Below, piece after piece: positions 367 through 33,937 of a DNA stretch of 42,980 nucleotides. Both the position numbers and the translations under genes were made by a program. The stretch's first letter is position 1, and the number at the start of each line of letters is the position of its first letter. The stretch lies in IMG/VR virus record IMGVR_UViG_2923355181_000001, one strand, 5' to 3'. The notes below the pieces were generated by a model. It saw only the letters and a program-made list of their open reading frames with translations. It was not told the DNA's origin and did not search any database. Origin of the DNA: a virus (taxonomy: Duplodnaviria; Heunggongvirae; Uroviricota; Caudoviricetes).

Positions 367-453
367 GCCCGGATGGTGGAATCGGTAGACACAAGGGATT
401 TAAAATCCCTCGGCGTTCGCGCTGTGCGGGTTCAAGTCCCGCTCCGGGTACCA
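367..453 (+). tRNA. leuZ: tRNA-Leu (UAA), class II with long variable arm
   Basis: GCCCGGATGGTGGAATCGGTAGACACAAGGGATTTAAAATCCC...GGGTACCA; 87 nt, UAA anticodon; immediately precedes the prophage integrase. Confidence 0.92.
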
Positions 454-496
454 TGGGAAAGATAAGAATAAAATCAAAGCAATAAGCAGTGTCGTG

Positions 497-522
497 AAAC
501 CACCTTCGGGTGGTTTTTTTGT
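497..522 (+). terminator. Rho-independent terminator of the tRNA operon
   Basis: Hairpin AACCACC-ttcg-GGTGGTT followed by a T7 run. Confidence 0.8.
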
Positions 523-2224: not shown

Positions 2225-2793
2225 TAGCGTATCCTCAGTGACCGTTCGCCGCGTTCCAGATGTGCGCCTGGTACCGGGTTTAATAACTCGGCTGGTGGTG
2301 TTTCTCCACGCGCCAGTATTTCGGCGGCAACCGCCTCCGCAGATTCAATCACTTCTTTAATGGCTCGCTTGTTTGGTGTAATAACCGTTTCTACATCAAC
2401 AAGTGACACGCCCTCATACTCATCCGGGATCTTATCTTTGCTATCGATAATTACCCGGATAGCCCCCTGTGCATCAGTAAATGTGTTTTTTGCGGTTTTC
2501 AGTTTATCCAGGCCAGCAGCTTGCAGGCAGGTGAGCATATGCTTTCGAATTGCTTTTTCCTTGCCTTCAAAGGACGTCTTACGGGTTGCCAGGCGAGACA
2601 TTTCTTCAGCGCAGGTATTGGCATTGCCCTGTAAATTACGGCAGATGACCATCATGGCGTCCAGTTTGTCTCCCAGTTCTCCTTCCATGCCTTCAAGCGT
2701 GTCGGCGATCATCTCTGGCGTCAGTTCATCGGCGGTTTCTAACAGGTCAATCAGACTGGCATATTCTTTTGCAATAGCGATAGCAGTGCTCAT
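2224..2793 (-). CDS. hypothetical early-left protein (possibly Gp157-like)
   Basis: 189-aa ORF; ATGA overlap with stop of the annealase gene; no motif I can assign confidently. Confidence 0.55.
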   Translation of the reverse strand: MSTAIAIAKEYASLIDLLETADELTPEMIADTLEGMEGELGDKLDAMMVICRNLQGNANTCAEEMSRLATRKTSFEGKEKAIRKHMLTCLQAAGLDKLKTAKNTFTDAQGAIRVIIDSKDKIPDEYEGVSLVDVETVITPNKRAIKEVIESAEAVAAEILARGETPPAELLNPVPGAHLERGERSLRIR

Positions 2794-5006
2794 GCTGTTT
2801 GCTCCTGTGCAGCGGTAAGGGCGGCGAGGCGTTCAGTTTTAATGTCGGTGATACGGCGCAGACGTGATCCCAGATACGATGAATATTCTTTATCGCCTTT
2901 GGTTTCCGCTGCTTTCCTGTGTACATCCACTTCGCGGGCGATGAGGCCAAATACCTTGTTTACTTCGTTGGCGGTTACCGCGGCGGCCAGCGTATTGGCA
3001 ACGTTGATAAGCTTCTCATCCAGTTCCTTACGCAGACGGGTAGCATCTTCCGCATTCTCGCTGGCATTCTTGATATCAAACTCAGCTTTATTCCTCTGGC
3101 GGTATTCCGGATTGTCGTACAGGCCCATGAAAATATCGGCGCTGAATCCGAGAGGGGATAGCGCTTTCTTAACAGCATCCGTCCAGGATTTCTTCGGTGC
3201 TTCGCCGTCGCTTGTTGGTCCGTATTTAGTGTCGTAGATATAAGGTGTGCATCCGTAAGCCTCGGACTCACCGCGTACCCCATTCAATATGTACCAGACT
3301 CTCACTTTCATGGTGTGGTGCATTTCACATAGGTACCCGCCAACACCGTCTTGAATCAGATCCCATTCTATTTTTTCACCAACCTGTTTTTTGCGAACTA
3401 TTGGTGCGCCTTTATCAAAGCGCTCCTCCAGCACCTCTACCCCCCAGCCAATACCAAATGGCCCAAATTCGCGAGTCGCTTTCATCGCTATATAAGTGCC
3501 GTTGATGGATGTGCCGCCGCCATTCTGAGAGAAAGCACTGGTGAAGCGCTCATCGGTTTTGAATACGTTCTTCCACAATGCCAGGTTATCCGTGTCATCT
3601 GAGTCCTTTAACTCCGTTTCGATAGCTGAGATTGCATTCTGCCGCTTGTGCTCTTCGGCATGGATCCGCTCAACCAGCGCGTCAACGTTCTGCACCAGAT
3701 CCTTTACCTGCTCGCTAAGTTGTTCTTGTGGAGGAGTCTCTTCTGCCAGGGTAATAGCTGCAGGTTCCCTCTGTGATACGGCGTTATTTTCAGGTACGTC
3801 ATACACATGGCGAGGCGTGACAAACTGCTCACGCAACTGCTGCAAACTACGTTCTCCAGCATTTGCAGCTTCGCTTTTTTCGCCCTGATTTGAGGGTGTT
3901 TCTGACATCATCCCATCAATTGAGAATCGTCCGCCGCCGTGGTTGGTGACTTTTACATCATCCTTGGGTGCTGCTTCCTTTGGCTTCTCTTCAACAGCAT
4001 TTGCATCACGCTGCCCGTTAGCTTGCAGCCAGTTGTCGATGTGACTGCGCAGGGATTGTGGGAAGTGGTACGTGTCTTTTGCGGGGGCGCTCTGAATAAC
4101 ACCGAATACTGATGCGCGGTCATAGGCAAGGATCTGATCCGTTGTGCGCAAGGCCATTGACCAGCGTTTAAAATCTTCCCTGTCCTGACTGATTATTTCG
4201 TCTGCCGCTTTCAGGATGCTGGGGGTGATTTTTTCCGGGGCAACAGGTAACAGGGCGCAGGCAATTTCACGATCCAGAGTGGCGTGAGTCTGTTTGTAAG
4301 GACGTGCGGATGCTGTTTCTGGTTTTACCTCCGGCAGCATTTCATCTCGTTTACCGGGATTCTCTACCCATTTTTTTATAAATTTGGAGATAGTCCAACT
4401 GGTCGGGTTTTGTTCCTGGGTATCGCAACTTGCCAAAATTGCATGTACCAGATTATTCAATCCAGCAATATGCATGTACTCGATGGGCTTACACGCCACC
4501 ATGGCATCAAGAACGATGCGGTTAAACGCGTCAACCTCATCCTCACTGTCAGTATCACTGTTATCGAGCATCTCCAGGTATTCACGCGTCTGCACAAGCA
4601 ATTCACTGTCGACTTCGTTGGCGTCGTGGCTGAACAGCAGAACGGCGGCGAATCGTTCACGAGCCGGCAGTTTCATCAGGTCGCTAACCTGTGAGATATC
4701 TGCTGAACTGCAATCTGAATCAACAGGAGTGTTAACTACCCATTTTTCGCCATCAAAACTGTGTTCTGTGGCAAACGTCTCATCAAACTCACCGACGCCT
4801 GGGCGCGGTTGGCCCGGGGCATCTTCCCAGATTTTAGGTTTGAAATAGTTGTCGCCGTGGTCAGGGTAGGCTTCCCACAATTTGCCGATGATGATGTTCT
4901 CGGCAACTTTTTTGTTAGGGGCGGCGATGGCGATGGCCAGCGCCGGGATCGCGCCGTTTTTGAGCGCGCCTTTTTTCGCTTCTAACAAGCCGTTAAAAAT
5001 GGTCAT
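2790..5006 (-). CDS. large recombination protein with Rad52-like single-strand annealing domain plus about 470-aa N-terminal region of unknown function
   Basis: 738-aa uninterrupted ORF; residues about 470-620 (...SQNGGGTSINGTYIAMKATREFGPFGIGWGVEV...KKSWTDAVKKALSPLGFSADIF) resemble the Rad52 N-terminal core; start has ATGAGGAAAGACCAATG context. Confidence 0.65.
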   Translation of the reverse strand: MTIFNGLLEAKKGALKNGAIPALAIAIAAPNKKVAENIIIGKLWEAYPDHGDNYFKPKIWEDAPGQPRPGVGEFDETFATEHSFDGEKWVVNTPVDSDCSSADISQVSDLMKLPARERFAAVLLFSHDANEVDSELLVQTREYLEMLDNSDTDSEDEVDAFNRIVLDAMVACKPIEYMHIAGLNNLVHAILASCDTQEQNPTSWTISKFIKKWVENPGKRDEMLPEVKPETASARPYKQTHATLDREIACALLPVAPEKITPSILKAADEIISQDREDFKRWSMALRTTDQILAYDRASVFGVIQSAPAKDTYHFPQSLRSHIDNWLQANGQRDANAVEEKPKEAAPKDDVKVTNHGGGRFSIDGMMSETPSNQGEKSEAANAGERSLQQLREQFVTPRHVYDVPENNAVSQREPAAITLAEETPPQEQLSEQVKDLVQNVDALVERIHAEEHKRQNAISAIETELKDSDDTDNLALWKNVFKTDERFTSAFSQNGGGTSINGTYIAMKATREFGPFGIGWGVEVLEERFDKGAPIVRKKQVGEKIEWDLIQDGVGGYLCEMHHTMKVRVWYILNGVRGESEAYGCTPYIYDTKYGPTSDGEAPKKSWTDAVKKALSPLGFSADIFMGLYDNPEYRQRNKAEFDIKNASENAEDATRLRKELDEKLINVANTLAAAVTANEVNKVFGLIAREVDVHRKAAETKGDKEYSSYLGSRLRRITDIKTERLAALTAAQEQTA

Positions 5007-11691: not shown

Positions 11692-11963
11692 ATTGACTTA
11701 GAAAAAGTCCGGGGCTATAGTTTCCGCGCAGCCGCAAAATCGGTTGCCGGGATTGGCGTCCCGGATATCTAAGTGACGCATAGCCGCGTTAGCGGTTTTT
11801 TTATGTGTTAGGCACGGCCACATTCGCATTATGGTGGGCTGTGTGGGGGCTTCTGTGGAAGCGCCGGGTTCACTTAGCCGGTTACGCCAACCCTGCACAG
11901 CTCACCACCAGATGATTGGCGTCGCTGGTGGTGATGAAAAAAACACTAAGTGAGGCCACTGCG

Positions 11964-12752
11964 ATGACAGTCCAAATATCTGCGGAATCCCTTTCTCCGC
12001 TACATCATAACCAACTTCCCGTCATCACTACTGAATTGCTTGCCAGTTTGTATGGCACGGAAGTAAATGGTATCCAGCAAAACTTCAAGCGCAACATCGC
12101 CAGATTTGTCGTAGGAAAGCATTTTTTTAAGCTGGAAGGTAATGAATTACGCGACTTCAAAAACAGACTGACAGATAGTCAGTCAGTTGCTAAACATACC
12201 CGATCCCTCATTCTCTGGACAGAACGCGGCGCAGCTCGCCATGCCAAAATGCTGGAAACAGAACAGGCCTGGGAAGTTTTCGAAAAGCTGGAAGATTGTT
12301 ATTTTAGCCAGCGTCCAGAGAGGCGGAGTACAACTACCGATGACCGTACTCCCTTGCGTGATGCCGTTAATATACTGGTCGGCAAGAAAGGCATGATGTA
12401 TCCCGATGCCTACACCATGATTCATCAACGCTTCGCCGTCTCTCACATAGAACAACTGTCACAGACGCAAATGTTAGAGGCGATTGAATACATCCACTGC
12501 CTGCTACTCGATGAAAATCACCCAACCATTCCAGATTTTTCTTTTATCACCACTATCAAAAATGGAAAAGTGACCGGGATGCGCCATGTTGCCAAAGGCG
12601 AACATCTGATGACCTTTGACGCTTTCAAAGAGATCGCTGAGCGGGCAGGGTATCTGGTGATCCACAGCGACAATCTGCGAAGTATGACACTGGATAAATT
12701 GATGGTAATGGGGAAAAAGTCGGCTATATCCGTTGCTAATTCAGCATTTTGA
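11964..12752 (+). CDS. phage antirepressor-like protein (ORF6N/KilA-type)
   Basis: Track ORF starts TTG 11916; ATG 11964 preceded by GAGG; N-terminal region resembles antirepressor N-domains. Confidence 0.55.
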   Translation: MTVQISAESLSPLHHNQLPVITTELLASLYGTEVNGIQQNFKRNIARFVVGKHFFKLEGNELRDFKNRLTDSQSVAKHTRSLILWTERGAARHAKMLETEQAWEVFEKLEDCYFSQRPERRSTTTDDRTPLRDAVNILVGKKGMMYPDAYTMIHQRFAVSHIEQLSQTQMLEAIEYIHCLLLDENHPTIPDFSFITTIKNGKVTGMRHVAKGEHLMTFDAFKEIAERAGYLVIHSDNLRSMTLDKLMVMGKKSAISVANSAF

Positions 12753-12776
12753 CAGGTTGTTTGGGGCGGAAATACT

Positions 12777-12848
12777 CTATTTGCGCTTAAAAAGGTATTT
12801 GACCACGACCAGCACGAGACCGAATACCTCTGTCAAAGTACCGCCCAT
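12777..12848 (-). pseudogene. orphan 3'-terminal fragment (23 codons + stop) of the membrane-protein gene at 16200-16805
   Basis: Minus strand encodes MGGTLTEVFGLVLVVVKYLFKRK*, one conservative change from the C-terminus of the 201-aa protein; about 90% nt identity over about 72 bp to 16200-16271. Confidence 0.75.
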
Positions 12849-12926
12849 ATAAAACAGTTACATATGCACTTGATGACTAAGCTGGCACCAGGTTAACACC
12901 TGGCGCCAGCTTGAAGGAGACTTCAG

Positions 12927-13850
12927 TTATTGGTTTCTGAGGAAAGCGATTCTTGAAAGGGTCATTTGCGTCTGGCAGTCGACCATTTTCTTGACTTCAG
13001 CATCTGTTCCCTGCATTGAAACTTTACCGCACATAGCATCCTTAGTTTTGATCCACTGACGCTGAGAAGGCAGCAAATCTTTTTTCTTCGCCGGGGTTAA
13101 CTTGCTCCAGACGGTACTCAAATCAGAGTCGGCATTCGCAAATGCCATTCGGGACTGATCAAGGTTGTCAGCTTTTTGCGGCTGAAGTTGTGCCTGTCTC
13201 TCTATTTGCTTCTCCGCCTCATACTTAGCCTGTTCTTGCGCCCTGAGTTGCACCTGTTGTTCCGCTTCAATTTGACTCTGTTGGGCATCCTTAGCCTGCT
13301 GGATTTTCTGCTGCTCAACGATCGGGGTGATAATGGAAAGCGATGTCAGTAAAGCGGCGCCCACTGATATCGGATTATCAGTAGAGGTTTTTACAAAAAC
13401 GTTTTTCTGATCGTCGGTCGCCTGCACGGTGTAGGTGATACGTTTTGAAAAGGCGTTTGCGTTGTTCTCCAAAAACAGGCTTTCCATTTGCTTATCGAGA
13501 TTACGATTAAAATTCTTTCTGTAAGCATCTGAAAGCTGGACGTACTCGTTCGCAGATAGAGTCATCGTCACGGTCCCTTCACAAGTTTTCATTGTGCTGC
13601 CCGTGTCACTTGATGTTGTGGAGATCTCAGAGATGGCTAGTTTGATCTTGTCCAGTGTGCTTCGTTTGGTCTGATTAGTGACATCAGGGTATTTATCGAC
13701 CTGTTCAGAGAGTCCTTCATAAGCAGATTTTTTTAATAAATCCATGAGAGCTGACTGGGTTATTTCCGAAGAACAACCGATCTCATCTTTTTTGTTATCA
13801 CAGCCTGTAAGGGCAATGGCGAGTAAGAGTACTGAGTATTTTAATCTCAT
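12927..13850 (-). CDS. lipoprotein with possible C-terminal DUF1311 (LprI-like) domain
   Basis: Signal peptide and lipobox MRLKYSVLLLAIALTGC; coiled-coil Q/E-rich middle; C-terminal QRQWIKTKDAMCG...VDCQ...TLSRIAFL pattern. Confidence 0.55.
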   Translation of the reverse strand: MRLKYSVLLLAIALTGCDNKKDEIGCSSEITQSALMDLLKKSAYEGLSEQVDKYPDVTNQTKRSTLDKIKLAISEISTTSSDTGSTMKTCEGTVTMTLSANEYVQLSDAYRKNFNRNLDKQMESLFLENNANAFSKRITYTVQATDDQKNVFVKTSTDNPISVGAALLTSLSIITPIVEQQKIQQAKDAQQSQIEAEQQVQLRAQEQAKYEAEKQIERQAQLQPQKADNLDQSRMAFANADSDLSTVWSKLTPAKKKDLLPSQRQWIKTKDAMCGKVSMQGTDAEVKKMVDCQTQMTLSRIAFLRNQ

Positions 13851-15038
13851 GAATTCCCTTTAGAGTAAGGATTGGTTTTTAAGACGCGGTCTGTAATCAG
13901 TCCCGAGAGCTACAGTAAACAACGCTGAGCACTGAACGCATCACAGGTAAGGTAAAAGGTGATATCGGCAAAGGCTGTGAAACCTTTAATTCAACAGATG
14001 GGAACGGTATGCGCAGGATCCTGTAACGACGCTCCCAAAACCGGAAACCTGTAAGGCATGTTTTCGCTGCTGAACTTAATATACGAACCTGCACTATCAT
14101 GAACATATTTTATATCGTTATACCCCGAGTGATTGTGCCCGGCAATGGATAGTGTCCTGGAGGAACTATTTCTACTGTAAAAGGTAGATATTTAATTTCA
14201 GTTTTGAATTATTCCCTGCTGTTAATAACAATGGCTGTATATGGCACCGAGTAGGCATTTTTTCGCTTACTGAAGGGCAGCTGTGAGCGAGGAACAGACT
14301 TTCCCTACTTCGTTGAGAGTACACCTAGTACAATCAAGGCTAAATGATAAAAATATACAAAATATCATATTTATGATATATATAATGGCATTAATCTTAT
14401 TCTTGGATTACGTTGAAAGGGTAATATTATATTTGTGTAACATAGTTTAGATAACAATGCCGTTATGGGGGGGGGAAAGACATTTCAACATATTAGCTTT
14501 GTATCTAACGCTCATGTAGATCTCGATTTTGAACTTAAAGAACAATTATTTTTTAGAGAGCAAGGTATTTTTGGGGAACAAAAACATAAAGTAATGGAGA
14601 GAGGAGAATGTATCAAAAAATCATCGATTTAATTTAGATTGTCCGTATAGTTGGGGGTAAGTCGAATCGCTGGGCTACATGGAATATTGTGTCAAGTAAA
14701 AATATATTTCAATCTTGCAATAACCGATTGTTGAAAATAATGTCAAATCTTAATGGTGAATGGGGAGAATATAATAAACATGAGTCGATATTATGCAAAT
14801 GGATTTAAATATTTTATACCCGAAGACATAGGGTTTCGAGAGTTCGATGAGACTACTTTGAATGCTTTCGAATTTGCTGGCTAAAACATATAGGTTATAT
14901 CTTACATCTGTTTGTAATGGAGCGTAGATGCGACAAGCTACACCATAATAATCATATTATGATATATTGTTAAGTTGTTATGGCATTAAATAAAATTATG
15001 TCATTTTGTTAACCAAGCAAGAATCAAAGGACTTTTAG

Positions 15039-15737
15039 ATGGGTACGGCATTAATTTCAAGCTTTATTAGTGGTGCAATAGCTATAATCTCTATTGCTAT
15101 ATCTACTTATAATCAGAATAGAATAAACAAGCTCAATGAATCACTGGATGTAAGGAGAAAACATCAGTACTATATTGAACCGTTAATTCGCTCAGCTTCA
15201 GACTTACAAAGCCGTATTTATAATATATTAGAATTGGGGTTCATTGAAGAGTTTTATCATAATGGGAATAAGCGCCAACAAGATTATGTTATCAACAATA
15301 CTGTTTTTCTTTTTTCCCAGTTTTTTGCATGGACAGAAGCTGCCCGCATAGACATTCAATACCTTAGCCTAGAAAAAAATAAAAAAATGAGGGAGTTTAT
15401 TAGATTACAGAACAATATTAACTCATTAATCCAAACAGACGTCTTTGGTCAGTATTTTATGTTTTTCATAGGAGAGCAGAGAGCTATTGCAGAAAAGATG
15501 CTGATATCAACAGATACTGGATTTGATTGCATAGGTTACGGCAGTTTCACAAAGGAAAATTGCTTTATCAATGAGCCATTTTTTTTAGATTTAAACAATG
15601 AAGTGATAAATATGACAAGAGATATCGGAATTTATAAAGAAAGGCTAATCAGAATACAGCACGCGTTAATCGATTTAATTAATTTTCTTGATCCTGGCAT
15701 GATTCGATTTGACGGAAAAAAATATGGAAAAATATAA
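15039..15737 (+). CDS. hypothetical membrane-anchored protein in strongly AT-rich cargo
   Basis: 232-aa ORF, AAAGGA RBS, N-terminal hydrophobic helix ALISSFISGAIAIISIAISTY; codon usage and GC far below flanking phage genes. Confidence 0.6.
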   Translation: MGTALISSFISGAIAIISIAISTYNQNRINKLNESLDVRRKHQYYIEPLIRSASDLQSRIYNILELGFIEEFYHNGNKRQQDYVINNTVFLFSQFFAWTEAARIDIQYLSLEKNKKMREFIRLQNNINSLIQTDVFGQYFMFFIGEQRAIAEKMLISTDTGFDCIGYGSFTKENCFINEPFFLDLNNEVINMTRDIGIYKERLIRIQHALIDLINFLDPGMIRFDGKKYGKI

Positions 15738-15921
15738 CCCAGATGATTCGTATCAAGGTAAGTTGCTATATGTATCAATTTAATTATGGTTGGGTGAAAT
15801 TTATGTTAATAGTAGCGGAGGGTTAGTTAAAATATGCTCTCAGTGATTTTTGGATAGTTCTTTTATTTATCATTGAAAGTAAATATGTATAGCTTCAAGA
15901 TTTACAAGTGAATCTGTTTAT

Positions 15922-15955
15922 TGACAGTCCGCTTATGGCACAGAGCGGACTGTCA
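15922..15955 (+). terminator. 12-bp perfect inverted repeat, candidate terminator or protein site
   Basis: TGACAGTCCGCT-N10-AGCGGACTGTCA followed by A/T-rich sequence. Confidence 0.3.
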
Positions 15956-16199
15956 TATTAAATTTGGCTCCACGCCATAGATGTGTCAGCTCATATCTTA
16001 TCTAATACACACAATAACTTTCTCATTCTTGGAGAATTATTTTTTTAAGGGTAGGTGTTGACGTTAGAGCAAAAGAATGGTGATTTTTTTGATGTGTATT
16101 ACGTTGGAACTGATGGGAATAACTATCTGTTTTCAACGCACTGCTAATTTATCAAGGCCCTTTGATCAGGGCCTTCGAAAGACTGTTGGACCGAGAGAG

Positions 16200-16805
16200 T
16201 TACTTGCGTTTAAAAAGGTATTTTGTCACGACCAGCACGAGGCCGAATACCTCTGTCAAAGTACCGCCCATGTACAACTGTAGTGTTAAATCCTCAAATT
16301 CCAGCTTACCTGCGCCGTCGGCAATAAATACACCATTCATTATCAGAAGTTGGAAAGCAAGGATAATCAGGAACCATTTCCCGTATCGTTTTTTTAGAGC
16401 GATTTCTGCTTCAAAATCTTTGTTGTTGAGTTGTTTGCGCTCATGCTCGGTATCAAGTGAATTCACCTGTTTCACAGATGTGAACTCGGTCAAGATTTTA
16501 CTCTCAGTACGGGTGACTTGTTGAGAGGGTGTAGCAGTTGGAATTCTTTTGCTAGACGCAGCTACAGCCATTTTGCGAGCTTCGGCAGCTCTTTTTCTGG
16601 CTATTCCGCGAATACGGACAGCCGTTTTTTTGGGGGCGTGCGAAACCTTTGGCTGAGGTGAAGCTTCGTCAGGAGACTGAACCGGAGTTTCATCGTCCTC
16701 CGGCTCAACCTCTTCTGCTAACTGACGGTGTAGGTTGAGGGAATCCTTCAGTCTGCGTGCTACTTCCTGTTTGAAACGGCTGTTAAAATCGTCATCCGAT
16801 GGCAT
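16200..16805 (-). CDS. hypothetical membrane protein with charged N-terminal region and C-terminal hydrophobic hairpin
   Basis: 201-aa ORF immediately downstream of the ImmA-like gene on the same strand; C-terminal WFLIILAFQLLIMNGVFIA...VFGLVLVVTKYLF hydrophobic. Confidence 0.6.
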   Translation of the reverse strand: MPSDDDFNSRFKQEVARRLKDSLNLHRQLAEEVEPEDDETPVQSPDEASPQPKVSHAPKKTAVRIRGIARKRAAEARKMAVAASSKRIPTATPSQQVTRTESKILTEFTSVKQVNSLDTEHERKQLNNKDFEAEIALKKRYGKWFLIILAFQLLIMNGVFIADGAGKLEFEDLTLQLYMGGTLTEVFGLVLVVTKYLFKRK

Positions 16806-16814
16806 TTTAAAGCG

Positions 16815-17303
16815 TTACCCCAACCTCAAGTTCTTTAAACGATAAGTCATCGCATCGTCAGATACGCCAAAATAATGCGCCATTATATAACTTGGTTGAC
16901 CGTCAGCGTGCAGTTTTCTGACCTCATCTACCGGCATCAGAAGTTCTGCTGCGAACTTGTTTGCAAAAATTTCATCAGGATGCGTTCCGGCGCTTGCGGT
17001 TTCGCCACGTAAATCAACGTACTCATATTCATCGCTATGCGATGCTTGCCGGGCGATGTAATGCCCCAACTCATGCCCACATGAAAAACGTTGACGAACT
17101 TTGTTGTCATCACTGTTTAGAAAGATCGCTGGATCTTGATCTTTTTGTTTAATCAGTGCGCCAGAAACTTTCCCAGGAAGATCGGTAATAAAAACATCTA
17201 ATCCCATGTCGTGAGCAATTTTCGCTGGATCAACAGGGAAACCACGCCCGCACCAGAACGTGTCCAGCACTCGCCGGGCGTGCTCTCTTGGGTTGGTAGC
17301 CAT
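16815..17303 (-). CDS. ImmA/IrrE-family (COG2856-like) zinc metallopeptidase
   Basis: 162-aa ORF with HEXXH motif (SCGHELGHYIA); strong RBS GGAGGAG. Confidence 0.65.
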   Translation of the reverse strand: MATNPREHARRVLDTFWCGRGFPVDPAKIAHDMGLDVFITDLPGKVSGALIKQKDQDPAIFLNSDDNKVRQRFSCGHELGHYIARQASHSDEYEYVDLRGETASAGTHPDEIFANKFAAELLMPVDEVRKLHADGQPSYIMAHYFGVSDDAMTYRLKNLRLG

Positions 17304-31400: not shown

Positions 31401-31933
31401 GCGGACTGGATGCATTTGACGAATATCTTGATCGCGTTAAAGGCGCGGTTTTACAAATACCGTTCATCAAAACATTCGGAATTTATCCGGAAATTCCGGC
31501 TGGATTTGAAACGCCAGCTCTGTTCCTGGAAATCAGCAACTGGTCACAGAGTGACGAATCGGTTCCAGGCTCAATTCAGTCAGTCGAGCTGTCGTGTAAT
31601 TTGTATTTGCTGCGTGAATTTGCAGCTGATCAGTACGGACTGAAATCGCAGAATGCAGCGCTCTATATGACGAGCTGGATCAATGGGCGAATGTTCGGTC
31701 CCGGAACTAAACCGGCAAAATTCAGCGACGCGGAACCGTGCGACTGGATTAAAAACGGGCAGTCAGTCGGTTCGCATTCAGTTCAGTGCGTGTCGTTCAC
31801 GCAGGTTGTAGGCGTTGGTCCAGATATTTTCGATTATCCCTCACAGGGGACCCTGAAAAATATATACGTCGGAATAGCACCAGATATCGGCGCAGAACAT
31901 GAGGGCGACTATTATGGCCCAATCGGACGATGA
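31397..31933 (+). CDS. hypothetical virion protein (possible tail completion)
   Basis: 178-aa ORF, ATGA coupling. Confidence 0.4.
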   Translation: MSGLDAFDEYLDRVKGAVLQIPFIKTFGIYPEIPAGFETPALFLEISNWSQSDESVPGSIQSVELSCNLYLLREFAADQYGLKSQNAALYMTSWINGRMFGPGTKPAKFSDAEPCDWIKNGQSVGSHSVQCVSFTQVVGVGPDIFDYPSQGTLKNIYVGIAPDIGAEHEGDYYGPIGR

Positions 31934-32513
31934 ATATGCTGCAGCGGAGAACGCGCGCAGGCTGCGTGACGCAGTTAAACGCGGCACGATAGCTGCAGTT
32001 AAAATGAATCCTCCACGCTGCCGAGTCTCATTTGGTGGCGAACACCAGTCAGGCTGGCTGCAGTGGTTTACTCACGCCACCTCAGAACGCGTCGACTGGA
32101 GCGCACCATCAGTGGGCGATCCCGTTACTGTTGTTTCTGAGGGTGGGGATACGCGGAACGGTGTAGTTATGCTCGGGCTGCACATTGACGACAAAGCTCC
32201 GCCAAGCAATGACCCCCATGATCATGTCACTGCATACTGTGACGGGGCTACGATGACGTATAACACAAAAAATCACACTCTGACATGGCAGGGCGTACCG
32301 GACGGCGTGGTAAAAATACTCGGTGAGTCTGAAATAGAAATATTTGGACGCGCAGATGTTACTATTAATAGCGAAAATGTAGTTAATATCCATGGTGGGA
32401 AATTAATTAACGCAGACGCTGATATTATTAATGTCACAGCGACAGATACAATTAACGCACATGCTGATTTAGTGAACGTTATAGCAACGAGTTCTGTTAG
32501 TGTTACTGCTGCG
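31914..32513 (+). pseudogene. baseplate spike/assembly protein gpV-like, 5' part (interrupted by IS1)
   Basis: PPRCRVSFGGEHQSGWLQWFTHA resembles P2 gpV RCRVQTGG...WLQWLTH; reading frame runs into the IS1 left end and terminates inside it. Confidence 0.8.
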
Positions 32514-32568
32514 GGTGATGCTGCCAACTTACTGATTTAGTGTATGATGGTGTTTTTGAGGTGCTCCA

Positions 32569-32844
32569 GTGGCTTCTGTTTCTATCAGCTGTCCCTCCTG
32601 TTCAGCTACTGACGGGGTGGTGCGTAACGGCAAAAGCACCGCCGGACATCAGCGCTATCTCTGCTCTCACTGCCGTAAAACATGGCAACTGCAGTTCACT
32701 TACACCGCTTCTCAACCCGGTACGCACCAGAAAATCATTGATATGGCCATGAATGGCGTTGGATGCCGGGCAACCGCCCGCATTATGGGCGTTGGCCTCA
32801 ACACGATTTTCCGCCATTTAAAAAACTCAGGCCGCAGTCGGTAA
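32569..32844 (+). CDS. insA: IS1 InsA
   Basis: [43 protein letters not shown] matches IS1 InsA as I remember it. Confidence 0.93.
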
Positions 32845-33266
32845 CCTCGCGCATACAGCCGGGCAGTGACGTCATCGTCTGCGCGGAAATGGACGAACAG
32901 TGGGGATACGTCGGGGCTAAATCGCGCCAGCGCTGGCTGTTTTACGCGTATGACAGGCTCCGGAAGACGGTTGTTGCGCACGTATTCGGTGAACGCACTC
33001 TGGCCACACTGGAGCGTCTTCTAAGCCTGCTGTCGGCCTTTGAGGTCGTGGTATGGATGACGGATGGCTGGCCGCTGTATGAATCCCGCCTGAAGGGAAA
33101 GCTGCACGTAATCAGCAAGCGTTACACTCAGCGAATTGAGCGGCATAACCTGAATCTGAGACAACATCTGGCAAGGCTGGGACGGAAGTCACTGTCGTTC
33201 TCAAAATCGGTGGAGCTGCATGACAAGGTCATCGGGCATTATCTGAACATAAAACACTATCAGTAA
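32763..33266 (+). CDS. insB: IS1 InsB (transposase C-part, expressed as InsAB' by -1 frameshift)
   Basis: Matches IS1 InsB (…[54 protein letters not shown]...). Confidence 0.9.
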
Positions 33267-33290
33267 GTTGGAGTCATTACCACTGCTGCG

Positions 33291-33593
33291 AACAGAATAT
33301 CGCTGACAGCTCAAACAATCAGCGCGTGGGCTCCGGGTGGTATAACACTAGCTGGTCCAACGCATATTACCGAGACATTAGTAGTAGATAAATTAGCGAC
33401 ATTCCGTAACGATATTTCTGTCACTGGAGATAACGGTGGAACAGGTAATATCACAACTCGCGGTAGTGTGTTAGCAGGGCAAGAGGTGCAGGACCGACAA
33501 GGCACAATAACTGAAGTCCGCACAACGTATAACGGACACACTCATATATGTCCGGACGGGGAAACTCAACAACCGAACCAACCAATGGCGTAA
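33291..33593 (+). pseudogene. gpV-like baseplate protein, 3' part
   Basis: Continues in frame from the 5' part once IS1 and one TSD copy are removed; C-terminal YNGHTHICPDGETQQP resembles P2 gpV LHTHKHPGDSGGTTGSP. Confidence 0.8.
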
Positions 33594-33595
33594 AG

Positions 33596-33937
33596 ATGCT
33601 TGGAATGGACCGTAACACCGGTAAACTTTTATCGGGGACTGATCACATTCGTCAGTCTATCGTTGATATTTTAACGACCCCGCTGGGGACGCGTGTAATG
33701 CTGCCGGAATATGGCAGCAAATTATTTGATCTTGTTGATAATCCCACAGATCCGTCGCTTGCTATGCGAATAATCATGGAAAGCGCTGGCGCAATAGCAC
33801 GATGGGAACCACGCGTCAGAATTGACAGAATAAATGTGTTAGCAGTGGATATCGGGAAAATAACAATATTAATTATCGCAACAGATATCGAAACACAACA
33901 GCGATTAGAGTTTAATAATATGGAGCTGATATTTTGA
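33596..33937 (+). CDS. baseplate protein gpW-like
   Basis: MLGMDRNTGKLLSGTDHIRQSIVDILTTPLGTRVMLPEYGS resembles P2 W; ATG 33596 (track ORF 33548 extends over the V tail). Confidence 0.85.
   Translation: MLGMDRNTGKLLSGTDHIRQSIVDILTTPLGTRVMLPEYGSKLFDLVDNPTDPSLAMRIIMESAGAIARWEPRVRIDRINVLAVDIGKITILIIATDIETQQRLEFNNMELIF

What the first reader, a model, noticed from the sequence alone, without database searches (positions are those of the whole stretch)
31914..33593. IS1 insertion with 9-bp target duplication splits baseplate gene V
A complete 768-bp IS1 (32514-33281, with InsA/InsB and the A6C frameshift motif) is flanked by direct repeats ACTGCTGCG (32505-32513 and 33282-33290). Removing IS1 and one repeat joins 31914-32513 to 33291-33593 in frame, giving a roughly 300-aa gpV-like baseplate spike protein. 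The prophage is therefore probably tail-defective unless V is complemented, i.e. a cryptic or domesticated element, and the insertion is recent because the target duplication is still perfect.
Basis: seen in the sequence. Interest (0 to 1): 0.5.

Follow-up and report, generated by a model that had tools for sequence, protein, structure and literature searches.

The report
IS1 insertion in prophage spike gene
A common jumping gene (IS1) has recently landed in the tail-spike gene V of an E. coli prophage that already carried an older frameshift in another essential tail gene, which is an ordinary step in prophage decay.

Summary
A 768-bp IS1 lies at 32514-33281, with 19/23-matching terminal inverted repeats, insA, insB', an A6C slippery site and an open 232-aa InsAB' fusion. 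It is flanked by the only two copies of ACTGCTGCG in the window. Removing IS1 and one repeat gives a 903-nt, 300-aa ORF. That ORF is 100% identical, as a single piece, to the intact 'baseplate assembly protein V' gene of more than 400 complete E. coli genomes. It is colinear with P2 gpV: OB-fold, beta-helix and a C-terminal HxH motif.

The insertion is rare and recent. None of 5,426 complete genomes carries this junction. It recurs only in one NCBI chromosome and in a short-read contig recorded for 4 samples.

First, the prophage (lambda-like head, P2-like tail, integrated at the tRNA-Leu gene, leuZ by its K-12 name) already has a +1 frameshift in essential hub gene D. That frameshift is shared by 363 of 432 genomes, so IS1 is probably not the first tail lesion. 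Second, other strains carry independent IS1 insertions within the same 142-nt AT-rich stretch of V. This fits IS1's AT-rich target preference, but enrichment was not tested.

Nothing supports domestication. This is a known kind of event and of low interest.

The parts
367..522 (+). tRNA-Leu(taa) gene (367-453) and the 125-bp attL repeat (398-522), marking the left prophage boundary
   Evidence: ARAGORN. Window 398-522 is repeated 100% to the right of the prophage in strain S9 (L001 31873-31997). PGAP places an integrase next to tRNA-Leu.
31914..32513 (+). Gene V, codons 1-200: N-terminal OB-fold domain and the first part of the beta-helix
31914..32540 (+). The ORF actually present: V(1-200) plus 8 IS1-encoded residues (GDAANLLI), with stop TAG at 32538-32540. 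208 aa, identical to WP_236922985.1.
32505..32513 (.). Left copy of the 9-bp target-site duplication ACTGCTGCG (V nt 592-600)
32514..33281 (+). IS1, 768 bp, in the same orientation as the late operon. It is 100% identical to the IS1 copy in V of strain S9 and to full-length copies on the listed E. coli chromosomes and plasmids; best-place identity is at least 99% in 1,690 records.
32514..32536 (+). IRL (23 bp). The promoter-like site at 32521-32548 overlaps it.
32569..32844 (+). insA (91 aa; Zn ribbon plus HTH)
32820..32826 (+). A6C (AAAAAAC) -1 frameshift motif
32569..33266 (+). InsAB' transposase made by -1 frameshift (232 aa; Zn ribbon, HTH and DDE_Tnp_IS1)
   Evidence: PGAP annotates the identical copy in S9 as 'IS1 family transposase, programmed frameshift'.
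33259..33281 (-). IRR (23 bp)
33282..33290 (.). Right copy of the 9-bp target-site duplication
33291..33593 (+). Gene V, codons 201-300 plus stop: the distal beta-helix and the apex, with the HxH motif (H283-T-H285) at 33537-33545. It is now untranslated; the only in-frame start leaves 41 aa.
33596..33937 (+). Gene W (GPW_gp25 wedge protein). It starts 3 nt after the V stop, so it is likely coupled to V translation.
   Evidence: The coupling is inferred.
41936..42980 (+). Gene D (tail hub) with an extra A at 42703. The frameshift gives 257 aa instead of 347 aa. This is a pre-existing lesion of the prophage lineage.

Best explanation
This is a simple, recent, strain-specific transposition of a common, intact IS1 isoform into codon 200/201 of gene V. 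V is the central baseplate spike gene of a roughly 43-kb prophage with a lambda-type head, a Q antiterminator and a P2-type contractile tail. The prophage is integrated at the tRNA-Leu(taa) gene (leuZ by its K-12 name, in a Gly-Cys-Leu tRNA cluster) in an E. coli of the O25b:H4/ST131-associated prophage lineage.

Mechanism: the IS1 InsAB' DDE transposase made a staggered cut, and repair duplicated 9 bp (shown by the anatomy). V translation now runs 8 codons into the left IS1 end and stops. The result is a 208-aa stub that keeps the OB-fold and about 70 residues of beta-helix but lacks the distal helix and the HxH iron-cage apex (shown). The remaining 100 codons are not translated (shown).

Inferred steps: the spike is non-functional or badly impaired; translation of W, whose start is 3 nt after the V stop, loses coupling; and any transcriptional polarity may be blunted by Q antitermination.

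The prophage was most likely already unable to build tails. Essential hub gene D carries a +1 frameshift that removes its conserved C-terminal 90 residues, and most genomes with this prophage share that frameshift. The IS1 hit is therefore a second, neutral lesion in a decaying prophage. Its position in the AT-rich beta-helix segment fits IS1's known preference for AT-rich targets. Independent IS1 insertions in the same 142 nt in other strains fit this too.
For: IS1 anatomy and target duplication.

Exact reconstitution of the intact allele: 903/903 nt in a single piece in complete genomes (421 of 447 records at >=99%; every listed hit is 100% in one piece except S9) and in 4 predicted-prophage records.

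gpV membership and colinearity: PF04717 at 47 bits; TIGR01644 at 104 bits; 3QR8 at E=1e-17; pyocin spike 4S37 at E=1e-13; BLASTP HSPs 12-128 to 9-124 and 187-261 to 119-194; HxH near the C-terminus.

Gene order V-W-J-I-H-sheath-tube-...-U-X-D as in P2.

Rarity and recency: 0 of 5,426 complete genomes have the junction. The same junction is seen independently in a Logan contig of SRR8182925, recorded for 4 samples, and as WP_236922985.1 on a 4.98-Mb NCBI contig. Outside the IS1 copies, the window differs from strain S9's prophage at only 2 positions in about 42 kb. The IS1 is 100% identical to full-length copies on the listed chromosomes and plasmids.

D frameshift: there is an extra A at 42703 relative to SK1144. 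363 of 432 genomes share it and 69 have the 60-nt version, annotated as an intact D/VgrG-family protein. The repaired D aligns end to end with P2 gpD (E=2e-25), and the P2 record calls gpD an essential tail protein.

Independent IS1 hits in V: S9 (V nt 459-466, 8-bp duplication, inverted); L006 and L007 (V nt 575-583, 9-bp duplication, inverted, two different IS1 isoforms).

AT-richness: 34-40% GC against 48% overall, within the lowest ~2.5% of 150-nt windows in the late region.
Against: No functional data exist for this prophage in any allele state. The four 'phage' records are in-silico prophage predictions that include the host gene yecA.

In P2, deletion of the apex domain is tolerated for assembly and infection (bioRxiv 10.1101/2023.02.25.529910). 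A truncated spike is therefore not automatically null, although here a third of the protein is lost.

The consequence of the D truncation is inferred from homology only.

The target-preference explanation for the clustering is untested, because only V was examined (ascertainment bias). The 9-bp target itself is GC-rich (6 of 9).
Confidence: 0.9

Rival explanations
1. Assembly artefact: an IS1 copy was wrongly placed inside V during assembly of a repeat-rich genome.
For: IS1 is highly repetitive in E. coli, with a median of 11 places per genome, so misjoins at IS copies do occur.
Against: A perfect 9-bp target duplication flanks the element. The same V nt 600 | IRL junction is seen independently in a Logan short-read contig recorded for 4 samples, and the 208-aa fusion protein is on record at NCBI. 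A misjoin would not create a target duplication while leaving both flanks colinear.
Confidence: 0.02
2. IS1-mediated rearrangement rather than simple insertion: a deletion, an inversion, or one end of a composite transposon.
For: IS1 is known to promote adjacent deletions and to form composite transposons such as Tn9 (general knowledge).
Against: The flanks rejoin with no missing or extra base to give the intact allele, 903/903 nt. An identical 9-bp repeat sits on both sides. The window is colinear with the S9 and SK1144 prophages on both sides. There is no second IS1 in the window.
Confidence: 0.02
3. Selected inactivation or domestication: loss of the spike is advantageous (for example it avoids lysis or toxicity, or converts the element to another use), and this explains the repeated IS1 hits in V.
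For: At least three sites, and probably four events, of IS1 insertion lie within 142 nt of V in different assemblies. The prophage is retained at >=99% identity in more than 400 genomes.
Against: Hub gene D is already frameshifted in 84% of the genomes, so a further tail knock-out should be neutral. Interrupted V alleles are rare: tens of contigs against >=1000 (a capped count) for the intact protein. The lysis and head genes are untouched. Clustering in the AT-rich segment is what IS1 target preference predicts. Only V was surveyed.
Confidence: 0.05
4. The insertion is functionally silent for assembly: the 208-aa stub still trimerises and plugs the baseplate, as the apex-deleted gpV of P2 does.
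For: The P2 gpV apex deletion folds, assembles and infects like wild type, and the beta-helix folds independently of the apex. The stub keeps the OB-fold and about 70 beta-helix residues.
Against: Here 100 of 300 residues are lost, including about half of the helix and not just a 20-residue apex, and 8 foreign residues are added. W may also lose translational coupling. The question is moot if the D frameshift already blocks tail assembly.
Confidence: 0.08

Closest known systems
IS1 (IS1 family insertion sequences of Enterobacteriaceae, e.g. IS1A/IS1R)
   Same: 768 bp; about 23-bp imperfect terminal repeats; insA plus insB' with the A6C -1 frameshift giving InsAB'; a 9-bp target duplication (8 bp in the S9 event); insertion in or next to AT-rich DNA.
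   Different: The isoform is 96.4% identical (740/768) to the IS1A-type copy in strain S9. PGAP labels it only 'IS1 family transposase'. I did not assign an ISfinder isoform name.
Phage P2 gpV (PDB 3QR8) and the R-type pyocin spike PA0616 (PDB 4S37): central baseplate spikes
   Same: N-terminal OB-fold (35% identity to P2 gpV over 117 residues); a beta-helix; a C-terminal HxH motif; a position at the head of a V-W-J-I baseplate gene block.
   Different: 300 aa against 211 aa, with about 90 extra residues in the beta-helix. It is encoded in a hybrid prophage with lambda-type head genes and a Q antiterminator, not in a P2-type genome with Ogr-activated promoters.
IS-mediated prophage decay in E. 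coli and Shigella (a general, well-documented phenomenon; recalled from general knowledge, no specific paper verified here)
   Same: An IS element interrupts a structural gene of a resident prophage that also carries other small inactivating mutations.
   Different: Nothing differs in kind. The only particular feature is the clustering of independent IS1 hits in one 142-nt segment of V.

Membership tests
IS1 family insertion sequence | Length of about 768 bp bounded by imperfect terminal inverted repeats of about 23 bp | tested here: met
   768 bp; IRL and IRR match at 19 of 23 positions.
IS1 family insertion sequence | insA (Zn ribbon plus HTH) followed by insB' (the IS1 DDE domain) in the -1 frame | tested here: met
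   PF03811, PF12759 and PF03400 all score above their cut-offs. NF033558 scores 146.5 bits against a cut-off of 100.
IS1 family insertion sequence | A6C slippery motif allowing the InsAB' fusion | tested here: met
   AAAAAAC lies at 32820-32826. The conceptual -1 fusion is open for 232 aa. PGAP annotates the identical copy in S9 as a programmed frameshift.
IS1 family insertion sequence | 8-9-bp direct target-site duplication | tested here: met
   The 9-bp repeat ACTGCTGCG occurs only at the two junctions. The independent events have 8-bp and 9-bp duplications.
IS1 family insertion sequence | Transposition activity | not testable with these tools
   Activity is only inferred, from the identical copies at many loci and from independent insertions of the same isoform.
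P2 gpV-type central baseplate spike (Phage_base_V / TIGR01644) | N-terminal OB-fold 'Phage_base_V' domain above the curated thresholds | tested here: met
   PF04717 scores 47.1 bits against 23.8. TIGR01644 scores 104.2 bits against 46.75.
P2 gpV-type central baseplate spike (Phage_base_V / TIGR01644) | Colinear alignment of the reconstructed ORF with solved spikes | tested here: met
   3QR8 at E=1.2e-17 (12-133 to 9-129). 4S37 at E=1.2e-13. A second HSP, 187-261 to 119-194, falls in order.
P2 gpV-type central baseplate spike (Phage_base_V / TIGR01644) | HxH histidine-cage motif near the C-terminus (apex domain) | tested here: met
   H283-T-H285 lies 15 residues from the C-terminus, compared with P2 H197/H199 of 211. 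Iron binding is not testable here.
P2 gpV-type central baseplate spike (Phage_base_V / TIGR01644) | Trimeric intertwined beta-helix | not tested
   No structure was predicted. The only indications are the repetitive V/I-x-V/I sequence pattern and the weak HSP to the P2 helix.
P2 gpV-type central baseplate spike (Phage_base_V / TIGR01644) | Genomic context: followed by W (gp25-like), J and I baseplate genes and contractile sheath and tube genes | tested here: met
   PF04965 and PF04865 match the next two ORFs. PGAP annotation of the near-identical loci agrees. The order is as in P2.

The most novel reading that the evidence does not exclude
The 142-nt AT-rich beta-helix segment of V (window 32372-32513) may be a genuine IS1 insertion hot spot, or repeated knock-out of the spike may be selected in the ST131-type lineage. 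At least three sites were hit independently, and one of them carries two different IS1 isoforms.
Probability: 0.12. Interest if true: 0.4.

Novelty: already known. Interest (0 to 1): 0.13.

Why it matters
It matters little beyond annotation. The 208-aa 'baseplate assembly protein V' and the orphan 3' fragment should be annotated as one IS1-disrupted pseudogene. The prophage should be scored as defective, both for this insertion and for the older frameshift in gene D, when prophage content or inducibility of this lineage is assessed.

The insertion is a clean, rare, clone-specific marker that could be used for strain tracking. If a proper survey confirms the clustering of independent IS1 hits in one short AT-rich segment, it would be a modest natural data set on IS1 target choice.

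Tried and rejected
1. I searched the junction (80 nt of V plus 80 nt of IS1) against the complete E. coli genomes. No record covered >=80% of it, so the window's own genome is not in that collection. The top hits, at 71% coverage and 91% identity, are IS1A copies with a chance extension into the flank.

2. I first took the many truncated 'partial' V proteins in the protein cluster (131, 147, 166 and 175 aa) as further IS insertions. On inspection their contigs end flush inside V with no IS sequence. They are not evidence and were dropped. Only junctions with IS1 ends were counted.

3. I looked for an IHF consensus (WATCAANNNNTTR), a feature I recalled from general knowledge as reported at an IS1 hot spot. 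There are two matches in the whole window and none near V.

4. I checked whether the four 'phage' records with an intact V are evidence of viable virions. They are in-silico prophage predictions from clinical isolates and include host yecA.

5. Literature searches for this prophage at leuZ in ST131 and for IS1 in baseplate genes returned nothing specific.

6. I did not predict a structure. A single-chain model of a trimeric beta-helix would add little to the sequence-level colinearity.

Full report
OBSERVATION

The sequence is exactly as described. ACTGCTGCG occurs at 32505-32513 and 33282-33290 and nowhere else on either strand of the window. The 768 bp between the two copies (32514-33281) start with GGTGATGCTGCCAACTTACTGAT and end with the reverse complement of GGTAATGACTCCAACTTACTGAT, a 19/23 match.

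The element encodes insA at 32569-32844 (Pfam Zn_ribbon_InsA and HTH_Tnp_IS1). It also encodes an overlapping -1-frame insB' ending at 33266. insB' scores 251 bits on DDE_Tnp_IS1 and 146.5 bits on NCBIfam transpos_IS1, against a cut-off of 100. The AAAAAAC motif is at 32820-32826, and a conceptual -1 slip gives an open 232-aa InsAB' with all three domains. A promoter-like site overlaps the left end at 32521-32548.

Joining 31914-32513 to 33291-33593 gives 903 nt, in frame, encoding 300 aa.

WHAT THE SPLIT GENE IS

The joined ORF matches an uninterrupted, PGAP-annotated 'phage baseplate assembly protein V' gene. The match is 100% over 903/903 nt in a single piece. 447 of 5,426 complete E. coli genomes have a match, 421 of them at >=99%. 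The same match appears in four GenBank 'phage' records.

The protein passes Pfam Phage_base_V (47.1 bits against 23.8) and TIGR01644 phage_P2_V (104.2 bits against 46.75). It matches the solved spikes of P2 (3QR8, E=1.2e-17) and of the R-type pyocin (4S37, E=1.2e-13).

BLASTP against P2 gpV gives two HSPs in order: 12-128 to 9-124 (35% identity, the OB-fold) and 187-261 to 119-194 (the beta-helix). The single HxH motif (H283-T-H285) lies 15 residues from the C-terminus, where P2 has its H197/H199 iron cage. The domain description comes from bioRxiv 10.1101/2023.02.25.529910. The protein is about 90 residues longer than P2 gpV, all of it in the helix.

The next ORFs are a gp25/W-like wedge protein and a J-like protein. 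After them come I, a tail fibre, sheath, tube, chaperone, tape measure, U, X and D, which is the P2 order.

THE ELEMENT THAT CARRIES IT

The window starts in host tRNA genes: Gly, Cys and Leu(taa) at 152-453. Window 398-522 is repeated exactly on the far side of the prophage in strain S9, so this is attL at the tRNA-Leu(taa) gene (leuZ by its K-12 name).

PGAP annotation of the near-identical S9 and SK1144 loci shows the following:
- an integrase, repressor-like regulators and a DnaB-type helicase;
- a cargo region;
- Q antiterminator and lysis genes;
- a lambda-type head module (terminase, gpW, portal, S49 protease, decoration protein, gpE-like capsid protein, FI);
- the P2-type tail module.

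The window ends exactly at the stop codon of the intact D reading frame. The hits include strains named JJ1887 and O25b:H4, which I recognise as ST131. MLST was not run, so the lineage assignment is inferred.

HOW RECENT AND HOW COMMON

Apart from IS1 copies, the window differs from S9 at 2 positions in about 42 kb and from SK1144 at 5. A 160-nt query across the left junction found no complete genome covering >=80% of it.

The exact 208-aa fusion product, V(1-200) plus GDAANLLI, exists as WP_236922985.1 on a 4,978,342-bp NCBI contig, presumably the source genome. It also occurs on a Logan contig of SRR8182925 that ends 28 nt into the IS1 left end and is recorded for 4 samples.

The IS1 is 100% identical to full-length copies on the listed chromosomes and resistance plasmids, and best-place identity is >=99% in 1,690 records. 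It is 96.4% identical to an IS1A-type copy in S9.

The event is therefore real, clone-specific and recent.

CONSEQUENCES

Shown:
- Translation of V terminates at TAG 32538-32540, after 8 IS1-encoded residues.
- The distal 100 codons, including the HxH apex, have no usable start. The longest in-frame ORF is 41 aa.
- The insB' stop is in the same frame as the V 3' fragment and separates the two.

Inferred:
- The spike loses function.
- W loses translational coupling, because its ATG at 33596 is 3 nt after the V stop and has no obvious Shine-Dalgarno sequence.
- IS1 may exert transcriptional polarity, which a Q-modified polymerase might override. IS1 polarity and antitermination are general knowledge here and were not tested.

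One caveat applies. In P2, an amber mutation at codon 9 of V is lethal, but deletion of the 20-residue apex is tolerated. The stub here lacks a third of the protein, so it is probably defective but not provably so.

AN OLDER LESION

Relative to SK1144, the window has an extra A at 42703 in gene D. D then stops at 257 aa instead of 347 aa.

With that base removed, the protein aligns end to end with P2 gpD (14-347 to 15-373, E=2e-25), including the C-terminal block beyond the frameshift. The P2 record lists gpD as an essential tail protein.

A 61-nt probe across the site is 100% matched in 363 of 432 genomes. In the other 69 the match is a 60-nt version, and the two listed examples are annotated as full-length 'late control D' or 'VgrG/Pvc8 family' proteins. 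S9 and the in-silico phage records also carry the split D.

The lineage was therefore very probably tail-defective before IS1 arrived. The IS1 hit is best read as a further, neutral step in decay. Nothing suggests domestication: the head, lysis, integration and regulatory genes are all still present, and the tail is not an isolated tailocin-like module.

RECURRENT HITS IN V

Strain S9 carries the identical IS1 isoform (768/768) in the same gene. There it is inverted, 134 nt upstream, and flanked by an 8-bp duplication, CGAAAATG (V nt 459-466). Its 156-aa product is on 16 contigs.

Two further assemblies carry an inverted IS1 with a 9-bp duplication, CGAGTTCTG, at V nt 575-583:
- In L007 the IS1 end matches the window isoform at 125 of 126 nt.
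- In L006 the whole IS1 is only 91.7% identical to the window copy, with different terminal bases.

So either two isoforms hit the same site, or one replaced the other.

All three sites lie within 142 nt of the most AT-rich part of V. That segment is 34-40% GC against 48% for the prophage, and it falls in the lowest ~2.5% of 150-nt windows in the late region. This fits the long-known preference of IS1 for AT-rich DNA (general knowledge).

I looked only at V, however, so enrichment relative to the rest of the prophage is untested. Other truncated 'partial' V proteins in the cluster turned out to be flush contig ends without IS sequence and were discarded.

COMPARISON AND VERDICT

The element meets every testable defining feature of IS1, and the reconstructed gene meets those of the P2 gpV spike family. 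The event, an IS interrupting a structural gene of a resident and already damaged prophage, is a familiar kind. The product and the IS are already annotated in public records.

Its functional inference needs the D-frameshift correction. Interest is low. The only mildly unusual aspect is the clustering of independent IS1 insertions in one short segment.

Noticed in passing
window 41936-42980 (extra A at 42703): Tail hub gene D is frameshifted, giving 257 aa instead of 347 aa. 363 of 432 complete genomes with this prophage share the lesion and 69 have the intact allele. With the base removed, D aligns end to end with P2 gpD (E=2e-25). The window ends exactly on the stop codon of the intact D frame.
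   Followed up: yes
window 32372-32513; L001 20459-21242; L006 3075-3859; L007 3075-3209: Independent IS1 insertions lie in the same 142-nt AT-rich segment of V in other strains. S9 has an 8-bp duplication (CGAAAATG), an inverted IS1 and the identical isoform. L006 and L007 have a 9-bp duplication (CGAGTTCTG) at one site but two different IS1 isoforms (91.7% against about 99% identity to the window copy). This may be a hot spot; enrichment against the rest of the prophage was not tested.
   Followed up: partly
window 16153-16161; L001 3472-4239: Strain S9 has an additional IS1A-type copy (96.4% identical to the window's IS1) inserted in the intergenic or cargo region. The window has an empty site there, and the BLAST pieces overlap by 9 bp (16153-16161), consistent with a 9-bp duplication.
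   Followed up: partly
window 367-522: The prophage is integrated at the 3' part of tRNA-Leu(taa), downstream of tRNA-Gly and tRNA-Cys. A 125-bp att repeat (398-522) recurs to the right of the prophage, next to yecA, in S9.
   Followed up: partly
window ~11900-17300: A cargo region lies between the replication genes and Q. In the near-identical S9 and SK1144 loci, PGAP annotates it as an ORF6N-domain protein, an LprI-family lysozyme inhibitor, a 232-aa hypothetical protein, and an ImmA/IrrE metallopeptidase with a 201-aa partner on the opposite strand. These may be moron or defence-type genes.
   Followed up: no
window 2790-5006 (- strand): A large 738-aa ORF of unknown function lies in the early region, next to a 'siphovirus Gp157 family' gene (2224-2793). 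PGAP calls it a hypothetical protein.
   Followed up: no
L004 (ON470624.1) and the three sibling phage records: The GenBank 'complete genome' phage records vB_EcoM-569R10, -705R4, -783R5 and -720R5 are 20-27-kb in-silico prophage fragments. They include the host gene yecA and the split D gene. They should not be read as evidence of viable virions.
   Followed up: yes
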